From IMG/VR virus record IMGVR_UViG_2687453454_000002: DNA of 51,775 nt; one strand, 5' to 3'. Shown piece after piece: positions 1,659 to 48,467 of the stretch. Made by a program: the position numbers and the translations under genes. The notes under the pieces were generated by a model. That model made no database searches, had not been told where the DNA came from, and saw only the letters and a list, made by a program, of their open reading frames with translations. Numbering within the stretch: position 1 is the stretch's first letter; every line of letters starts with the position of its first letter. The DNA comes from a virus (Duplodnaviria; Heunggongvirae; Uroviricota; Caudoviricetes).

Positions 1659-2738
1659 TTAAGAATCAGCCTGACTCGGGATCAGTTTTTGCCAGATAAC
1701 TGAAACGTATTTTGCCTGGTAACGGGCGTCATCAAGTGCATTATGGCGCTCACCTTCGAATGGAATAGCCGTTCTGGCATCGAAGTCTATGGCTTTCCCC
1801 AGCTCAACGATTGTGCGTACATCGCGATCGTTGTAGTAACGCCACGGGCAGGGGATCCCCTGCCGTTCGTATGAACGGCGCAAAATCGTGTTGTCGAAGT
1901 TGGCTCCATTTCCCCAAACCTGAACAAAAAATTCACCGGAGTTTTCGTCGATAAATTCTCGCAATTGTAACAGTGCATCATCTAACGGGATTTCATCGGT
2001 CATAATGGCAGATTGCGCTTCGCGTGATTGCTTAAGCCACCATTTAATGGTGTCCCGATCAATGACTCCGCCAGCAGTTTCCAGATCGATAGTCTTACTA
2101 AATTCCGGTCCCATATCTCCGGTTTGCGGATCGAAAAATATTGCACCTATTGAGATGATCGGGGCATCAGGATTTTTTCCCATGGTTTCAAGGTCGATCA
2201 TTAGATGGTCACACGTCCTGCTGGTGGATGTGATTTCGTGATGACCGTTCACCTTAATTGGGTGATCTGCCGTCTCGCCAGTTTCATTATCGCTATTGTG
2301 ATGCTGATTGCCGCCAGTGTTCTCCTTGTGTGGATGTTCAGCGCCTTCCATTTCCTCCGGATCATCTTCCTGAACTTCAACCTGATACTCTTCATCGAAT
2401 GTTTCTTGGTATGTTGCGTCGCCCATCACCGCGCCACAATCAGGGCAGTTGCCGCCGCCGGTCTGACCGCAGGCGGTGCAGACTTTTTCCACTTCCTGTT
2501 GCGCTACTGGTTCAGGCTGTTTCGTTTCTGGCTCGTTTTGTAACGCATTTGGACTGTTTTGTTCCGCTTTTTGGTAGTTCCGTTCCGATTCATGCTGGTT
2601 CTGGTTCACAGAATCGCGGGTCTGGAGCCCCTTAACCCATTTCGGATCATTCGGGTCACTAATCCCTTCAACAAATTCACCACGTGATGCAGCAAGCAAC
2701 TTATCGGCGTCAGGCTGGCTGATATTGGCTGCCTGCAT
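1659..2738 (-). CDS. DnaQ-like (DEDDh) 3'-5' exonuclease with N-terminal Zn-ribbon and acidic linker
   Basis: C-terminal half carries Exo I (LMIDLETMG), Exo II ([11 protein letters not shown]) and Exo III (HNALDDARY) motifs; N-terminal CTACG..CPDCG ribbon followed by an acidic low-complexity stretch. Confidence 0.7.
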
Positions 2739-2987
2739 AATTTTGTTTACTTCGTCAGCGGTAACTTTTATCGGCTCTGGTTGTTCTGAATCTTCAGCGG
2801 TATCTACATTTTGCGGTAAGCCCGTGTATGTGCCATTTTTTCGGGCAAAATATTCTTCTTTTGTGATTTCAGTGGCGCCAGCAGCCAGTGCCTTATCCAG
2901 ACCAGAGAGTTTGTTTGCGCGACCGTATTTTTCTCCGTCCTTATCTGCGAAGAGGAAATAGAACGGCCCCTCACGCTCTACAGATGG

Positions 2988-4130
2988 TTAAGCTTCCGGC
3001 GCGGTTTCATTTTTTGGGATATCAGATACCTCAGTTTCCACTGCATCAGTTTGTGTTTCTGATGACTGGAGAACATCAACAGTGCCCAGGTCTGTTTCTT
3101 CATTCTCAAACACGCCCTTTGTCGTCAGGTATTCGCAGATATATTTGTTCAGTGCTACGGGATCTTTGTGAATGTCGATCGGACGCTCACGGACAAGGCC
3201 AAAAATAGTTTGGCGGTCGTAGCGAAGGGCATCAGGCTGTTTGCGCATTGATGCCGAGATACGCTTCCAGTCTTCGCGGTCGTTGTCGATAACTTCTTTT
3301 TTTGCCCAGCGATGGATGCTGCCGTCAATGTTTCCGGCATCCACATCACTAGGCCAGAGAGCGTAGGCCAGTTCGTCATCCAGTGTTTTCCATGTCTGCT
3401 TGTATTCGCGATGAATGGCAGCAATGACCGGGCTGATTTTTCCTGTTGAATTTTCAGTGTACTGTTGATTGGCTCTGGCGCGGGCGAGATCAACAACAGA
3501 CGTGTATTTTCCGGTTTCCTTGCGTTCACCTTCGCGACGTTTTTTCCAGATGCGCATCTCTGCCTGAATTTCGGGCCATTTAGCACCAGGAATACATTTA
3601 TGCTTAACCCACCCAATGGCGTGCAACTTAAGCTCCGGATACATGGCGTTAACTTCTGGCATTTTCATCAACGCTTCAACGATATGTCCGTCGAATGTTG
3701 CCATGTCTTCCTGCAACAATTCCTGTGCGCTAATAACCATATCAACGGTGATGTTTTCACATGTGTCGAACTTAACCATGACAGCGTTCTGTACTTCAGG
3801 GGCCAGCTTGTCAAAAGTGACGTTCATCGGATCGGATTCAGTCTCAACCGGGACAAAAGAAGCAGACTCCTCATCCCAGCGGTTTTCCTGCATATATTCA
3901 GCATCCCATGAATCGAGGGCAGGGCGGGGTATGCCAGGTTTATCCTCGCAGACAATAAATTTATAAGCGCAGTCCTGAGCAGCCGGATAATGTTCCAGGA
4001 ATTGCCAGTGAAATTTTGCTCGAGCACGGCGTTCGTCGCCAGCTTCAATGGCTGTGGCTACAGCCACAGCGCCTTCTTCCCTTGTTGCCAGTTCGTCAGG
4101 AATAGCGGCGCAAATAAAGACTTTACTCAT
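2988..4130 (-). CDS. ydfE: YdfE-like early-region protein of unknown function (full length)
   Basis: ORF-track entry 2988..4166 begins with TTG; the ATG at 4130 has a GAGG Shine-Dalgarno about 10 nt upstream. Position matches ydfE downstream of ydfD in Qin (recalled gene order). Confidence 0.6.
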   Translation of the reverse strand: MSKVFICAAIPDELATREEGAVAVATAIEAGDERRARAKFHWQFLEHYPAAQDCAYKFIVCEDKPGIPRPALDSWDAEYMQENRWDEESASFVPVETESDPMNVTFDKLAPEVQNAVMVKFDTCENITVDMVISAQELLQEDMATFDGHIVEALMKMPEVNAMYPELKLHAIGWVKHKCIPGAKWPEIQAEMRIWKKRREGERKETGKYTSVVDLARARANQQYTENSTGKISPVIAAIHREYKQTWKTLDDELAYALWPSDVDAGNIDGSIHRWAKKEVIDNDREDWKRISASMRKQPDALRYDRQTIFGLVRERPIDIHKDPVALNKYICEYLTTKGVFENEETDLGTVDVLQSSETQTDAVETEVSDIPKNETAPEA

Positions 4131-18755: not shown

Positions 18756-19031
18756 GTGGCTTCCATTTCCATCAGATGTCCTTCCTGCTCCGCTACTGAA
18801 GGCGTGGTGCGTAACGGCAAAAGCACTGCCGGACATCAGCGCTATCTCTGCTCTCATTGCCGTAAAACATGGCAACTACAGTTCACTTACACCGCCTCTC
18901 AGCCCGGTACGCACCAGAAAATCATTGATATGGCTATGAATGGCGTCGGATGTCGCGCCAGTGCACGCATTATGGGCGTTGGCCTCAACACGGTTTTACG
19001 TCACTTAAAAAACTCAGGCCGCAGTTGGTAA
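18756..19031 (+). CDS. insA: IS1 InsA (91 aa)
   Basis: [51 protein letters not shown]... is IS1 InsA. Confidence 0.9.
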
Positions 19032-19453
19032 CCTCGCGCATACAACCGGGCAGTGATGTGATTGTCTGCGCTGAAATGGATGAACAGTGGGGCTACGTCG
19101 GTGCTAAATCACGTCAGCGCTGGCTGTTTTACGCGTATGACAGGATACGGAGGACGGTTGTGGCGCACGTCTTCGGTGAACGCACTCTGGCCACACTGGA
19201 GCGTCTTCTGAGCCTGCTGTCGGCCTTTGAGGTCGTGGTATGGATGACGGATGGCTGGCCGCTGTATGAATCACGCCTGAAGGGAAAGCTGCACGTTATC
19301 AGCAAGCGTTACACTCAGCGCATTGAGCGACATAATCTGAATCTGAGACAACATCTGGCAAGGCTGGGACGGAAGTCACTGTCGTTCTCAAAATCGGTGG
19401 AGCTGCATGACAAGGTCATCGGGCATTATCTGAACATAAAACACTATCAGTAA
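18950..19453 (+). CDS. insB: IS1 InsB' reading frame (expressed as InsAB' by -1 frameshift)
   Basis: 167-aa ORF in the -1 frame overlapping the insA 3' end; typical IS1 layout. Confidence 0.85.
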
Positions 19454-19790
19454 GTTGGAGTCATTACCTTTGTACTCTTGAAAAACTGTGTTCTGACTCT
19501 TGGGTGCAGTTTGGGCAGGAACATTTAACGAGATAATTACGGCGTGATTTTGAGTTTTTACGTTCTGACATAGGCTTTTCCTGTATAAATGGCCGTATAC
19601 AGTACACTAAATATGAAAACATTTCTCGTATTATTATTTTATATATGACTTTCTTTCAAAATAATTACCCACATTTTTAATGTGTATGTTTTTTTAGCGC
19701 CGTTGAGAACAACGTGTGCTGTCAAAACTACCCCGTAGACTCCGATCTTTTCAAACATATTGCACCATCCGTGTACATCGGGGTGAGGAT

Positions 19791-20006
19791 ATGAAATCAA
19801 TGGATAAGTTAACAACAGGTGTTGCCTATGGCACATCGGCGGGTAATGCTGGTTTCTGGGCATTGCAGTTACTCGATAAAGTAACTCCGTCACAGTGGGC
19901 TGCAATCGGTGTGCTGGGTAGCCTGGTTTTTGGCCTGCTGACGTATCTGACAAATCTTTATTTCAAGATTAAAGAAGACAGGCGTAAGGCTGCGAGAGGA
20001 GAGTAA
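19791..20006 (+). CDS. essQ: Holin (71 aa) with dual-start motif
   Basis: [71 protein letters not shown]; GGTGAGG Shine-Dalgarno upstream; first gene of the lysis cassette. Confidence 0.8.
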
Positions 20007-20010
20007 TCCA

Positions 20011-20318
20011 ATGACTCAAGACTATGAACTGGTTGTGAAAGGAGTCCGTAATTTTGAGAATAAAGTTACGGTAACTGTAGCCTTACAGGACAAAGAACGC
20101 TTTGACGGTGAAATTTTTGACCTGGATGTCGCCATGGACCGTGTTGAAGGAGCTGCGCTGGAGTTTTATGAGGCAGCAGCCAGAAGGAGCGTCCGGCAAG
20201 TCTTCCTGGAAGTAGCAGAAAAATTGTCAGAAAAAGTTGAGTCTTATCTGCAGCATCAGTACTCCTTTAAGATTGAAAATCCTGCCAATAAGCACGAGCG
20301 TCCTCATCATAAATATCT

Positions 20319-20322
<4 letters not shown>
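20011..20322 (+). CDS. ydfR: YdfR-like protein (103 aa)
   Basis: 103-aa ORF between holin and lysozyme, the position of ydfR in Qin. Confidence 0.65.
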
Positions 20323-21346
<1,024 letters not shown>

Positions 21347-21708
21347 GGTAATATTAAATCGGAACATTTACATCGCGGAATGTAAAATTTAAATAAAAAG
21401 GACTCTTCCATGAGCCAAAATTCCTGAAATCTTAAGGGTAAGATAAAAGGTCTTAATCAGAATGACACGTTTTATTAATAAATAAAGCTATTCTTTCATT
21501 GCTGTGTTTTTCTTTACAAAAGTAATCCTTGCTATGGGTGGTTAATCATGCGTTAATGGTGTTCTGGTTTGTTACAAATTTATCTGAAGCAGTCATTGTT
21601 ATAATTTTATTATTTGTACCTCTTGAGATTTCCTTGTTGGTTTTTCTCTCTGATATTTTTTTTCGGACCATTCTGCCCAAGGGCTAATTTCTTCAAAAGG
21701 TAATAATT

Positions 21709-21921
21709 ATGTCTAACAAAATGACTGGTTTAGTGAAATGGTTTAACCCTGAAAAAGGTTTTGGTTTCATCACGCCGAAAGATGGCAGCAAAGATGTGTT
21801 TGTCCATTTCTCAGCAATTCAGAGCAACGATTTCAAAACATTAACTGAGAATCAGGAAGTTGAATTTGGTATTGAGAACGGACCTAAAGGTCCTGCCGCT
21901 GTTCATGTAGTGGCGCTTTGA
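21709..21921 (+). CDS. cspI: Cold-shock protein CspI (70 aa)
   Basis: [54 protein letters not shown]... cold-shock domain with RNP motifs; long A/T-rich 5' leader upstream. Confidence 0.9.
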
Positions 21922-22124
21922 GGTAGACAATATTACAAACCATATTCACTTTAGATGCCCGTGTTGTCATGGTTCCCAGTATAGAACATCATCTTTTGAT
22001 GTTTCTGACATGAATCCTTTCGGGGCAAAATGTATCTTTTGTAAATCAATGATGATTACATTTGATAATATTTCACAATACTTAAATGCCAGCCGTCTGT
22101 CGTTGGATTTAAAAAAGTGAAAAT

Positions 22125-22768: not shown

Positions 22769-22919
22769 TGTATTCAATAATAAAATTTATCCATAAACCT
22801 CGTTTTTACGGGGTTTTGTTATATTTGAATGGTTCCGAATATCTAAATCACAATTGTTGATGGTTTTTATTAAACCAATGCAGTCCGGCTCAGGAGTGAG
22901 AGAAGCCGGACGTTATGGT

Positions 22920-23345
22920 TTAGCGTGGTAAGATCTGTGTAGTTTTCTGGATGCTTTCAGTAAATAGTAATGAATTATCAAAGGTATAGTAATATCTTTT
23001 TTGTTCGTGGATATTTGTAACCCACCGAAAAACTCCTGCTTTAGCAAGGTTTCTTCTGTATTCCTGAAATGTGATCTCTCTGGATTTCAGCTTATTAGAG
23101 GTCGTTTCTATAAGATGCCTATCCTTTGAAAATTTGACAGACACAATGTTTTTTAGGCCCTTTAATAACACTGTATTATCATTTTTTAATACAATATGAA
23201 CATTCTCTGTGGCTAAATAGTAAATGTAATGTGAGACATTGTGACGTTTTAGCTCAGAATAAAACCATTGATAGTTTAAATCGTTTCGAACTTTATCAAA
23301 TATTTGTTTAAAAATGACTACCTGATCCATAGATAAACCTTCCAT
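22920..23345 (-). CDS. ydfO: YdfO-like protein (141 aa)
   Basis: 141-aa ORF at the position of ydfO between gnsB and the Nu1 homologue in the recalled Qin gene order. Confidence 0.55.
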
Positions 23346-23387
23346 GTGATATGAGGGGGCGTAGTCTGCACGATTATCTAAATTGCT

Positions 23388-23621
23388 TCAATCTGGTCTG
23401 ACCTGTTTTCTGAGCAATTCAGTAATGTCACTCTTTTCTTTGTTTGCTTCAGAAGAAACTCTTTTTTCTGAGCACAGTCTCCGGCGGCAGGCTTCAATGA
23501 CCCAGGCTGAGAAATTCCCGGACCCTTTTTGCTCAAGAGCGATGTTAATTTGTTCAATCATTTGGTTAGGAAAGCGGATGTTGCGGGTTGTTGTTCTGCG
23601 GGTTCTGTTCTTCGTTGACAT
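23388..23621 (-). CDS. ynfO: Small RHH-like (Arc/CopG-type) protein, YnfO-like (77 aa)
   Basis: Basic N-terminus (TRRTTTRNIRFP) followed by helix-rich NQMIEQINIALEQKGSGNFSAWVIEACRRRL, compatible with a ribbon-helix-helix fold; co-directional with and just upstream of ydfO. Confidence 0.5.
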   Translation of the reverse strand: MSTKNRTRRTTTRNIRFPNQMIEQINIALEQKGSGNFSAWVIEACRRRLCSEKRVSSEANKEKSDITELLRKQVRPD

Positions 23622-23820
23622 GAGGTTGCCCCGTATTCAGTGTCGCTGATTTGTATTGTCTGAAGTTGTTTTTACGTTAAGTTGATGCAGATCAATTAAT
23701 ATGATACCTGCGTCATAATTGATTATTTGACGTGGTTTGATGGCGTAGATGCACGTTGTGACATGCAGATGATAATTATTATCATTTTGCGGGTCCTTTC
23801 CGGCGATCCGACAGGTTACG

Positions 23821-23832
23821 GGGCGGCGACCT
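23821..23832 (+). other. cosN cohesive-end site (lambda-type 12-nt overhang GGGCGGCGACCT), with cosQ upstream and cosB downstream
   Basis: Exact GGGCGGCGACCT followed by CGCGGGTTTTCGCTATTTATGAAAATTTTCCGG..., matching the lambda left end as recalled; ...GACAGGTTACG precedes it as at the lambda right end. Confidence 0.9.
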
Positions 23833-24009: not shown

Positions 24010-24529
24010 ATGGAAGTCAACAAAAAGCAGCTGGCTGACATTTTCGGTGCGAGTATCCGTACCATTCAGAACTGGCAGGAACAGGGAATGCCCGTTCTGC
24101 GAGGCGGTGGCAAGGGTAATGAGGTGCTTTATGACTCTGCCGCCGTTATAAGATGGTATGCCGAAAGGGATGCTGAAATTGAGAACGAAAAGCTGCGCCG
24201 GGAAGTTGAAGAACTGCGGCAGGCCAGCGAGACAGATCTCCAGCCAGGGACTATTGAGTACGAACGCCATCGACTTACGCGTGCGCAGGCCGACGCACAG
24301 GAGCTGAAAAATGCCAGAGACTCCGCTGAAGTGGTGGAAACCGCATTCTGTACTTTCGTGCTGTCGCGGATCGCAGGTGAAATTGCCAGTATTCTCGACG
24401 GGATCCCCCTGTCGGTGCAGCGGCGTTTTCCGGAACTGGAAAACCGACATGTTGATTTCCTGAAACGGGATATCATCAAAGCCATGAACAAAGCAGCCGC
24501 GCTGGATGAACTGATACCGGGGTTGCTGA

Positions 24530-24555
<26 letters not shown>
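24010..24555 (+). CDS. nu1: Terminase small subunit Nu1 (181 aa)
   Basis: MEVNKKQLADIFGASIRTIQNWQEQGMPVLRGGGKGNEVLYDSAAVI... matches lambda Nu1 from memory. Confidence 0.95.
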
Positions 24556-47892: not shown

Positions 47893-48467
47893 TGGCATTC
47901 AGAATGAGTGAACAACCACGGACCATAAAAATTTATAATCTGCTGGCCGGAACTAATGAATTTATTGGTGAAGGTGATGCATATATTCCGCCTCATACAG
48001 GTCTGCCAGCAAACAGTACCGATATTGCACCGCCAGATATTCCGGCTGGCTTCGTGGCTGTTTTCAACAGTGATGAGTCATCGTGGCATCTCGTTGAAGA
48101 TCATCGGGGTAAAACGGTTTATGACGTGGCTTCCGGCGACGCGTTATTTATTTCTGAACTCGGTCCGTTACCGGAAAATGTTACCTGGTTATCGCCGGAA
48201 GGGGAGTTTCAGAAGTGGAACGGCACAGCCTGGGTGAAGGATACGGAAGCAGAAAAACTGTTCCGGATCCGGGAGGCGGAAGAAACAAAAAACAACCTGA
48301 TGCAGGTAGCCAGTGAGCATATTGCGCCGCTTCAGGATGCTGCAGATCTGGAAATTGCAACGGAGGAAGAAATCTCGTTGCTGGAAGCATGGAAAAAGTA
48401 TCGGGTATTGCTGAACCGTGTTGATACGTCAACTGCACAGGATATTGAATGGCCAGCACTGCCGTAG
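47892..48467 (+). CDS. tfa: Tail fibre assembly protein Tfa (191 aa)
   Basis: 191-aa ORF immediately after stf with start/stop overlap; Tfa-type sequence ([43 protein letters not shown]...). Confidence 0.85.

What the first reader, a model, noticed from the sequence alone, without database searches (positions are those of the whole stretch)
22920..23621. Two-gene minus-strand cassette (RHH-like YnfO plus YdfO-like protein) between the lysis genes and cos
A 77-aa protein with a ribbon-helix-helix-like pattern is followed on the same strand, 42 bp later, by a 141-aa protein, in the moron position between the lysis cassette and cos and opposite to the flanking phage operons. The arrangement (small DNA-binding protein upstream of a larger partner) resembles antitoxin-toxin or regulator-effector pairs, but I cannot assign a toxin or defence fold from sequence alone.
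Basis: inference. Interest (0 to 1): 0.45.

Follow-up and report, generated by a model that had tools for sequence, protein, structure and literature searches.

The report
Known ynfO–ydfO prophage genes, not a toxin pair
The two genes are real, but they are the already catalogued, uncharacterised ynfO and ydfO genes of Qin/lambda-type E. coli phages, and comparative evidence indicates two independently inherited and regulated accessory genes rather than a toxin–antitoxin or defence pair.

Summary
The 77-aa protein is YnfO (Pfam DUF3950). The other is YdfO (DUF1398), 140/141 identical to PDB 2HH8 and probably 136 aa long. The same DNA occurs in 4,697 of 5,426 complete E. coli genomes, and lambda itself carries both genes.

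The toxin–antitoxin reading is not supported:
- DUF3950 occurs in 155 phage records and DUF1398 in only 43.
- Chromosomal DUF1398 paralogues have no DUF3950 neighbour.
- Lambda has an opposite-strand gene between the two.
- YdfO has an orphan fold with no resemblance to a known toxin, and PADLOC finds nothing.
- ydfO carries its own conserved upstream element, with a PdhR-box-like site, shared with its solo paralogues.

YnfO's first 49 codons are under strong purifying selection (up to 27 synonymous versus 6 non-synonymous differences), while both of its flanks are mosaic. A ribbon-helix-helix fold is plausible but not shown. In Proteus, Yersinia and Pasteurella satellites, the family's gene is the only antisense gene and lies beside a conserved palindrome array. 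That suggests a transcription regulator.

Verdict: known genes of unknown function; low to moderate interest.

The parts
23388..23621 (-). ynfO coding sequence (77 aa; DUF3950 / YlcI-YnfO family)
   Evidence: ORF. Pfam DUF3950 2.7e-21. NCBIfam NF041551 above its cut-off. Annotated ynfO in RefSeq E. coli at 100% DNA identity.
23475..23621 (-). ynfO conserved core, codons 1-49: basic N-terminal arm, IRFP strand and two helices (ribbon-helix-helix-like)
   Evidence: Nearly invariant in protein across phage types, with up to 27 synonymous versus 6 non-synonymous differences. Homology to Stx-phage copies starts exactly at the ATG. AlphaFold2 core pLDDT about 85, helices 19-32 and 34-50. GC 49%.
23388..23474 (-). 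ynfO variable C-terminal tail, codons 50-77 plus stop; compositionally part of the AT-rich cargo block
   Evidence: The tail is replaced by unrelated sequence in lambda, 434, Stx and other variants. GC 37% against 49% in the core. Selection is relaxed here: 4 synonymous / 4 non-synonymous against 8 / 2 in the core.
22920..23330 (-). ydfO coding sequence (136 aa from the second ATG; the 141-aa ORF extends to 23345); DUF1398, orphan alpha/beta fold
23331..23407 (-). Conserved ydfO upstream element: PdhR-box-like AACAGGTCAGACCAGAT (23391-23407, overlapping the last ynfO codons and stop), -35-like TTGAAG (23386-23391), 17-bp spacer, TG + CAGACT (23363-23370), SD GGAAGG (23338-23343)
   Evidence: The block is conserved at DNA level upstream of lambda's ybcV-like gene and of chromosomal ycgX-type paralogues in E. 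coli, other Escherichia species and Citrobacter, which have no ynfO. Coordinates. PdhR SELEX peak at K-12 ynfO/ydfO with this same 17-mer, and 10-fold lower ybcV mRNA in a pdhR mutant (PMC7660256). The promoter assignment is an inference. No RNA structure is supported.
22872..22922 (-). Stable stem-loop starting at the ydfO stop codon (probable 3' end or stabiliser of the leftward transcript)
   Evidence: RNA fold -21.9 kcal/mol, z = -5.8, 0 of 200 shuffles as stable. There is no U-run directly after it, so its function as a terminator is inferred.
23791..23832 (+). cos region bounding the cassette: cosQ-like GGGTCCT (23791-23797) and the 12-nt cohesive-end sequence GGGCGGCGACCT (23821-23832)
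   Evidence: Exact matches. The region is about 91% identical across lambda, 434 and 2H10. cosQ is annotated at the equivalent place in phage 434. Which sequence is lambda's cohesive end is from my own knowledge.

Best explanation
The cassette is two adjacent but functionally separable accessory genes of a lambda/Qin-type temperate phage. Both are transcribed antisense to the late operon.

(1) ynfO encodes a small basic protein. Its 49-residue core is most likely a dimeric ribbon-helix-helix-type DNA-binding regulator. The core is a self-contained, strongly conserved unit that sits between the lysis and packaging modules of many lambdoid phages. In PICI-like satellites (PICI = phage-inducible chromosomal island) it sits between alpA and the replication operon. 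Its DNA target in this phage is unknown.

(2) ydfO encodes a DUF1398 protein with an orphan fold built from two (helix-helix, three-strand) repeats. It belongs to the AT-rich cargo block. It is dispensable for lytic growth in lambda. It carries its own upstream regulatory element, probably a weak sigma-70 promoter with a PdhR site placed to act as a class II activator site.

In this Qin-type arrangement, the 3' tail and stop codon of ynfO run into that ydfO element. This is because a mosaic junction lies at about codon 50 of ynfO.

Shown here: gene identities, fold, distribution, selection, and the conserved upstream block. Inferred: DNA binding by YnfO, the promoter assignment, and expression in the lysogen.
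For: Identity.

Independence of the two genes:
- 155 phage records hold DUF3950 against 43 with DUF1398.
- Stx-type and related phages (Stx2a_WGPS8, JLK-2012, PPyecE) and phage 434 have DUF3950 without DUF1398, next to HNH/TerS/TerL or followed by bor.
- DUF3950 spans Enterobacterales, Pasteurellaceae and Gilliamella.
- DUF1398 has only about 200 representatives and is confined to Enterobacteriaceae.
- All 30 chromosomal DUF1398 loci (L035-L037, L039, L043-L046, L049-L068) lack DUF3950 within 6 kb and share no conserved neighbour.
- Lambda has lambdap79 on the other strand between the two genes.

YnfO is a real, constrained protein: pN/pS is about 0.06 over the core. Homology stops at the ATG on one side and at about codon 50 on the other.

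Regulator-like features: predicted strand-helix-turn-helix core, and Arc/Mnt register with R16 on Arc R13. In satellites it is the only antisense gene, and 3-4 copies of an RGTG-N6-8-CACB palindrome cluster in the roughly 170 bp upstream of it, with at most one match in the rest of each 10-kb locus. This is conserved across three genera.

ydfO autonomy: the upstream block is conserved with its solo paralogues. PdhR binding and activation data are in PMC7660256. Composition is 32% GC against 49% for the ynfO core. lambdap78 is non-essential by CRISPRi (PMC10695390).

Against: - In the 80 closest viral contigs, 79 keep DUF3950 immediately followed by DUF1398 on the same strand. In this lineage the pair is stably linked.
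- No terminator or structure lies between the two genes, so read-through co-transcription is likely.
- The YnfO tail co-varies with what lies downstream. That is also what a partner-binding antitoxin tail would do.
- No consensus sigma-70 promoter was found on the minus strand.
- No operator-like motif is shared between the lambda-type and Stx-type ynfO upstream regions, so the target of the phage-type protein is undefined.
- The palindromes in satellites could equally be AlpA sites.
- The PdhR evidence comes from K-12 paralogues, not from this phage.
Confidence: 0.6

Rival explanations
1. Regulator-effector operon. YnfO is an autoregulating repressor of a leftward ynfO-ydfO transcript, so it sets the level of YdfO in the lysogen. 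The two genes form one functional unit in Qin-type phages without being a toxin-antitoxin pair.
For: Same strand, a 57-bp gap, and no terminator-like structure between the genes. A strong hairpin appears only after ydfO. 79 of the 80 closest viral loci keep the pair adjacent. YnfO looks like a small DNA-binding protein.
Against: ydfO has its own conserved upstream element, shared with paralogues that lack ynfO, and has PdhR-dependent regulation reported. Most phages with YnfO lack DUF1398. In lambda the two genes are separated by an opposite-strand gene. No conserved operator lies upstream of ynfO across phage types.
Confidence: 0.2
2. Type II toxin-antitoxin or abortive-infection pair. YdfO is a toxin or effector held in check by the YnfO antitoxin, whose C-terminal tail binds it.
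Against: - DUF1398 genes stand alone in Escherichia, Citrobacter, Klebsiella, Kluyvera, Raoultella and Pseudocitrobacter chromosomes with no DUF3950 nearby.
- Lambda's YbcV-like protein is 79% identical to YdfO, yet it is paired with a YlcI-type protein whose tail is unrelated and only 15 aa long, with another gene in between.
- YdfO's fold matches no toxin, nuclease or defence fold, and no PADLOC model matches.
- The residues conserved across the family are mostly hydrophobic or structural.
- An ASKA clone overexpressing ybcV was recovered in a growth-based screen (PMC2853380).
Confidence: 0.04
3. YnfO is an accessory factor for DNA packaging or late-operon control. It would bind near cos or the start of the terminase genes. 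ydfO would be unrelated cargo.
For: In phages the gene always lies directly beside the start of the packaging module. This holds for two unrelated terminase types: Nu1/A with lambda cos, and HNH + TerS/TerL. In the latter the start codons are only 41 bp apart.
Against: In satellites the gene lies between alpA and the replication genes, kilobases from the terminase. It is antisense to the late transcript. The DNA flanking it is unrelated between the two phage types. From my own knowledge, lambda packaging is not known to need a factor encoded there.
Confidence: 0.08

Closest known systems
ynfO-ydfO of the Qin cryptic prophage of E. coli K-12 (YdfO structure: PDB 2HH8)
   Same: Same genes, order, strand and neighbours (cspI, ynfN, gnsB on one side, nohA/nu1 on the other). 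The DNA is 100% identical to many RefSeq E. coli chromosomes, and YdfO is 140/141 identical to 2HH8.
   Different: Here the genes sit in what appears to be a complete phage genome with a full-length terminase. The cassette DNA is 100% identical to phage PhiR42_1. In Qin the region is a decayed prophage. Both genes are still listed as uncharacterised in the 2024 y-ome review (PMC11551758).
Phage lambda right end / DLP12: bor, lambdap78 (ybcV-like), lambdap79 (ybcW-like), ylcI-like ORF
   Same: Homologous DUF1398 (79% identical) and DUF3950 (98% identical over the first 54 residues) genes, on the same strand and in the same place next to cos.
   Different: Lambda has about 560 bp extra that carry lambdap79 on the opposite strand between the two genes. 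Its YlcI-type protein has a different 15-aa tail, and bor follows. The window has none of these. A 2026 preprint reports that lambda escapers of the Vulcan defence system lose lambdap79, probably by recombination with Qin. That would produce the arrangement seen here.
Arc and Mnt repressors of phage P22 (ribbon-helix-helix)
   Same: Small size and a basic N-terminal arm. The strand motif N-I-R-F-P matches N-L-R-W-P / N-F-R-M-P. A glycine turn and a serine N-cap precede helix B. The gene lies inside the late region of a temperate phage (the Arc and Mnt sequences and their DNA-contact residues are from my own knowledge).
   Different: No statistically significant sequence or structure match. No adjacent antirepressor gene or divergent operator pair in this window.
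Type II toxin-antitoxin modules with ribbon-helix-helix antitoxins (ParD/ParE, RelB/RelE, CcdA/CcdB)
   Same: A small putative ribbon-helix-helix protein with a variable C-terminal tail lies upstream of a larger protein on the same strand.
   Different: No conserved pairing, no toxin fold, a separate conserved upstream element for the second gene, and free-standing copies of the supposed toxin.

Membership tests
DUF3950 / YlcI-YnfO family (Pfam PF13132, NCBIfam NF041551) | Profile match above the curated cut-off | tested here: met
   Pfam 75.6 bits (cut-off 25). NCBIfam 36.6 bits (cut-off 30). PHROG 949 at 6.3e-34.
DUF1398 (Pfam PF07166) / YdfO-like fold | Profile match above the cut-off, and the fold of PDB 2HH8 | tested here: met
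Ribbon-helix-helix (MetJ/Arc) superfamily | Beta-strand, helix A, glycine turn and helix B of the right lengths, with an alternating polar/hydrophobic strand | tested here: inconclusive
   The monomer model has an extended 13-18 segment, helix 19-32, G33, and helix 34-50+, with core pLDDT about 85. DSSP assigns no strand, as expected for a strand that forms only in a dimer. Family-invariant residues I15, R16, F17, P18, I25, F37, S38, W40, V41 and C45 fit the core pattern.
Ribbon-helix-helix (MetJ/Arc) superfamily | Significant sequence-profile or structure similarity to a solved member | tested here: inconclusive
Ribbon-helix-helix (MetJ/Arc) superfamily | Homodimer with an intersubunit two-stranded sheet that binds DNA | not testable with these tools
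   Only monomer prediction was available, and there is no experimental data.
Type II toxin-antitoxin system | The two genes are inherited together across lineages | tested here: not met
   155 phage records with DUF3950 against 43 with DUF1398. Solo DUF1398 in chromosomes. Solo DUF3950 in Stx-type phages, 434 and satellites.
Type II toxin-antitoxin system | The larger protein has a known toxin fold or activity | tested here: not met
Type II toxin-antitoxin system | Single autoregulated bicistronic operon, usually with overlapping or closely spaced genes | tested here: inconclusive
   A 57-bp gap without a terminator allows read-through. But the gap holds a promoter-like element conserved in paralogues that lack ynfO.
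Type II toxin-antitoxin system | Toxicity of the second protein, neutralised by the first | not testable with these tools
   The only indirect hint is that an ASKA ybcV overexpression clone was recovered in a stationary-phase glycogen screen (PMC2853380).
Known anti-phage defence systems (PADLOC-DB v2) | A match to any model of a known or candidate defence protein | tested here: not met
   0 families at E <= 1 for YnfO, YdfO, GnsB and YnfN.

The most novel reading that the evidence does not exclude
DUF3950 (YnfO/YlcI) proteins could be a so far unrecognised class of small ribbon-helix-helix regulators of mobile elements.

In Gram-negative PICI-like satellites they would be the missing repressor. 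They would act on a conserved array of RGTG-N6-8-CACB palindromes between their own gene and the divergent replication operon. Nearly identical copies in lambdoid phages, including an ORF left unannotated in the reference lambda record, would act in trans on a target outside their own mosaic flanks. That would open the possibility of phage-satellite or phage-phage cross-talk.

Probability: 0.15. Interest if true: 0.6.

Novelty: already known. Interest (0 to 1): 0.25.

Why it matters
As a finding, it mostly clears up a false lead. A layout that looks like a toxin-antitoxin pair is better explained as a junction between a conserved backbone gene and an AT-rich cargo gene.

It still touches two of the least understood genes of the best-studied phage family. 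Both are on the E. coli list of uncharacterised genes, and one has a solved structure with an orphan fold.

The comparative results give concrete handles:
- YnfO's 49-residue core is a strongly constrained, autonomous unit found in phages with two packaging types and in satellites.
- ydfO-type genes travel with their own PdhR-linked control element.

If YnfO-family proteins prove to be regulators of satellites or of phage late regions, that would bear on how Gram-negative satellites are kept silent. That question is still open.

Tried and rejected

2. A first attempt to scan genomes with the full 16-sequence DUF1398 alignment failed because it had no stretch conserved enough. A narrower alignment worked.

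3. RNA explanations. Rfam found only the cspA-type thermoregulator upstream of cspI. RNAalifold on the conserved ydfO leader gave -4 kcal/mol with essentially no covariation. The element is therefore treated as DNA-level control.

4. The consensus promoter scan found no minus-strand sigma-70 site for either gene. The proposed ydfO promoter matches the consensus poorly and rests on conservation and on the published PdhR data.

5. Operator search upstream of ynfO in this phage. Only short repeats (ATGCAGAT twice) were found, and none is shared with Stx-type copies.

6. The published statement that YdfO overexpression protects against oxidative stress (PMC4077768) was traced to a paper that names YfdO of CPS-53 and never mentions ydfO (PMC3105296). 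It was discarded.

7. The annotations 'head protein' (PHROG 413) and 'putative envelope protein' for DUF1398. Nothing I examined gives a basis for them: the gene lies outside the head-gene region, is non-essential in lambda, and by my reading of the sequence shows no N-terminal signal peptide.

8. The many hits in non-enterobacterial 'genomes' (L008-L047) are lambda fragments, not real homologues, and were excluded from the distribution argument.

Full report
**Observation.**
The window has a 77-aa ORF at 23388..23621 (-) and a 141-aa ORF at 22920..23345 (-), 42 bp apart, exactly as described.

To the left, on the + strand, lie a holin, ydfR, a lysozyme and Rz with embedded Rz1 (19716-21346). 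Next come cspI, ynfN and gnsB.

To the right lie a cosQ-like GGGTCCT (23791-23797), the 12-nt cohesive-end sequence GGGCGGCGACCT (23821-23832), nu1 (24010-24555) and the large terminase gene.

So the cassette really is the last coding DNA before cos, and it runs against the late operon.

**Identity.**
The 77-aa protein is YnfO: Pfam DUF3950 at 75.6 bits, NCBIfam YlcI_YnfO_N, and PHROG 949.

The larger protein is YdfO: DUF1398 at 157.5 bits, and 140/141 identical to PDB 2HH8, the NMR structure of E. coli YdfO.

Its real start is probably the second ATG at 23330, giving 136 aa. That ATG has a GGAAGG Shine-Dalgarno 7 nt upstream, all homologues start there, and the RefSeq annotation uses it. The gap between the genes is then 57 bp.

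The 1,151-bp region is 100% identical to many E. coli chromosomes, where the genes are annotated ydfO and ynfO. It occurs in 4,697 of 5,426 complete genomes. It is also 100% identical to phage PhiR42_1.

Both genes are listed as uncharacterised in the 2024 review of the E. coli y-ome (PMC11551758).

**Are the two genes a functional pair?**
I tested co-inheritance in several collections, and the evidence argues against a pair.

- *Phage records.* DUF3950 is found in 155 records and DUF1398 in only 43.
- *DUF3950 without DUF1398.* In Stx2a_WGPS8, JLK-2012 and PPyecE the DUF3950 gene stands alone. It is antisense, 41 bp from the start of an HNH endonuclease-TerS-TerL packaging module. In phage 434 it is followed by bor.
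- *Lambda.* Lambda has both genes, but about 560 bp carrying lambdap79 (ybcW-like) on the opposite strand lie between them.
- *Family ranges.* DUF1398 is a small family, with about 200 representatives among 1.84 billion proteins. Once lambda contaminants are removed, the genome scan finds it only in Enterobacteriaceae. DUF3950 is much wider: Xenorhabdus, Serratia, Yersinia, Morganella, Proteus, Providencia, Salmonella, Klebsiella, Erwinia, Pantoea, Arsenophonus, Pasteurella, Actinobacillus and Gilliamella.
- *Solo DUF1398.* Chromosomal copies have no DUF3950 within 6 kb and no conserved neighbour of any kind. These are the ycgX type in Escherichia and Citrobacter, and a more distant clade in Klebsiella, Kluyvera, Raoultella and Pseudocitrobacter.

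A toxin that routinely stands alone in chromosomes is hard to reconcile with a toxin-antitoxin model.

**YdfO.**
AlphaFold2 gives a confident model: pLDDT 89.6, made of two repeats of two helices plus three strands.

No PADLOC model matches it, YnfO or the neighbours. The residues conserved across the family (L27, Y35, T41, N43, the L-A-x-A-G-V-F-K/R-W motif, Y114) are mostly hydrophobic or structural.

In lambda, the homologue lambdap78 is non-essential by CRISPRi (PMC10695390).

**ydfO has its own control region.**
The roughly 75 nt upstream of the ATG are conserved at DNA level in three settings: the window, lambda's ybcV-like gene, and the chromosomal ycgX-type genes of E. coli, other Escherichia species and Citrobacter. 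The encoded proteins of those chromosomal genes are only 44-49% identical to YdfO.

The block starts with AACAGGTCAGACCAGAT (23391-23407). Then come TTGAAG, a 17-bp spacer, TG-CAGACT, and the Shine-Dalgarno.

Published genomic SELEX found a PdhR site with exactly this 17-mer at K-12 ynfO/ydfO, and another between ybcV and ybcW. ybcV mRNA fell 10-fold in a pdhR mutant (PMC7660256).

I read this as a weak promoter with a class II-type activator site. That is an inference: the consensus scan did not flag it. RNAalifold gives no support for an RNA element.

The last codons and the stop codon of ynfO lie inside this block.

A strong hairpin follows the ydfO stop (-21.9 kcal/mol, z = -5.8), and there is none between the two genes. 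Read-through from ynfO into ydfO is therefore possible here.

**YnfO.**
- *Conservation.* The first 49 residues are almost invariant across phage types, whereas the tail is replaced by unrelated sequences.
- *Selection.* This is protein-level selection. Lambda-type and Stx-type copies differ by up to 27 synonymous but only 6 non-synonymous changes (pS 0.82, pN 0.05).
- *Boundaries.* Homology between the two phage types begins exactly at the ATG and ends near codon 50.
- *Composition.* GC also changes there: 49% in the core, 37% in the tail, 32% in ydfO and 51% for the whole window.

So the conserved unit is the protein core alone, and a mosaic junction lies inside the gene. This explains why the tail co-varies with the downstream cargo without needing a binding partner. 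Lambda's YbcV-like protein is 79% identical to YdfO, yet it goes with a different, 15-aa tail.

**Is YnfO a ribbon-helix-helix protein?**
The monomer model shows an extended segment at 13-18, helix 19-32, a turn at G33, and helix 34-50+, with core pLDDT about 85.

Across a diverse family alignment, the invariant residues are I15, R16, F17, P18, I25, F37, S38, W40, V41 and C45.

hhalign against Arc plus Mnt places N-I-R-F-P on N-L-R-W-P, with the glycine turn and helix B in register. But this is only P = 0.0097 with 4% probability.

I rate the fold assignment as probable but unproven.

**Context outside E. coli phages.**
In Proteus, Yersinia and Pasteurella the DUF3950 gene lies in integrase-alpA-primase-capsid/terminase elements of the PICI satellite type. 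It is the only gene on the opposite strand. It sits between alpA and the operon of small genes leading to the primase. A 2026 survey also lists YlcI/YnfO proteins in capsid-forming PICIs of Enterobacter (PMC13612085).

The roughly 170 bp between the gene and the divergent operon hold 3-4 copies of an RGTG-N6-8-CACB palindrome. The remaining ~10 kb of each locus holds at most one match. The sites are conserved across the three genera although the surrounding DNA diverges. That is the layout of a repressor with its operators, although AlpA could equally be what binds them.

No such motif lies near ynfO in the window. The phage-type protein also has different residues before the IRFP strand, so its target remains unknown.

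**Verdict.**
- The gene names and the position are right.
- The ribbon-helix-helix idea is reasonable.
- The toxin-antitoxin or defence reading is not supported.

The best model is two separable accessory genes: a conserved small regulator-like backbone gene, and an independently regulated cargo gene of orphan fold. They are joined in this lineage by a mosaic junction inside ynfO.

These are known genes of unknown function, so the finding as written is ordinary.

The residual interest lies in the DUF3950 family as a possible regulator of phages and satellites.

Noticed in passing
window 18756-19453: ORFs that I recognise as IS1 insA and insB (91 aa and 167 aa) lie just upstream of the holin gene, inside the late region of the phage. 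This identification is from my own reading of the translations; no homology search was run.
   Followed up: no
window 21563-21948 (+): An Rfam cspA thermoregulator match (112.8 bits, gathering score 78) covers the 5' leader and coding region of the cspI-like gene. The phage cargo block therefore includes a cold-shock gene with its RNA thermosensor.
   Followed up: no
J02459 (lambda) 48142-48303, minus strand; L002 3587-3781: The reference lambda record has no feature annotated over a 64-aa YlcI/YnfO-family ORF about 200 bp from the right cohesive end. Yet its core is under strong purifying selection across phages.
   Followed up: partly
L008-L047 (for example L012, L013, L018, L020, L021, L026, L041, L042): Dozens of 'genomes' of unrelated bacteria contain this lambda region at about 79% protein identity to YdfO. 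Examples are Brevibacillus, Flavobacterium, Pedobacter, Cohnella and Arcanobacterium 'plasmids'. The contigs are often about 3.5 kb long. From my own knowledge, that size fits the 3.6-kb lambda-derived nanopore control DNA, so these are contaminants and not homologues. Many error-laden ENA proteins probably have the same origin.
   Followed up: partly
literature: PMC4077768 versus PMC3105296: The statement that YdfO overexpression raises oxidative-stress resistance appears to be a name mix-up with YfdO of prophage CPS-53. The cited paper contains yfdO and never ydfO. The ionic-liquid induction of ydfO (12-fold by microarray, 116-fold by qPCR) comes from the first paper's own data.
   Followed up: yes
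L155 4847-4980; L158 4830-4975; L161 4842-4938: A cluster of 3-4 RGTG-N6-8-CACB palindromes lies between the DUF3950 gene and the divergent replication operon of PICI-like satellites in Proteus, Yersinia and Pasteurella. The motif is almost absent from the rest of each 10-kb locus.
   Followed up: partly
L150 (Pasteurella phage Pmp7) 3001-3180 (+): A clear 59-aa DUF3950 ORF is unannotated there. It lies antisense inside an annotated 224-aa 'transcriptional repressor' CDS (2583-3257, -). Gene calls in related Pasteurella genomes instead give the DUF3950 gene and short flanking genes, so one of the two annotations is probably wrong.
   Followed up: partly
window 23346-23387 compared with L002 3054-3586: The window lacks lambdap79 (ybcW-like). 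A 2026 preprint identifies lambdap79 as the trigger of the Vulcan NADase defence system. It reports that lambda escapers delete the gene, probably by recombination with Qin, which would give the arrangement seen here.
   Followed up: partly
PHROG 413 and GenBank/RefSeq lambda-type records: DUF1398 proteins are variously labelled 'head protein' or 'putative envelope protein'. Nothing I examined gives a basis for either label: the gene lies outside the head-gene region, is non-essential in lambda, and by my reading shows no N-terminal signal peptide.
   Followed up: partly
window 23583-23603 (ynfO codons 7-13): In the 20 distinct core sequences compared, codons 8, 9, 11 and 13 (CGC AGA / ACA / CGC) never vary, and codons 7 and 12 (ACC) change only by a non-synonymous T-to-I change in one sequence. 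Most other degenerate codons vary synonymously, including codon 10 within this stretch. The stretch contains a direct repeat of ACCCGCA 15 nt apart. A DNA- or mRNA-level constraint is possible, but this is a post hoc observation.
   Followed up: no
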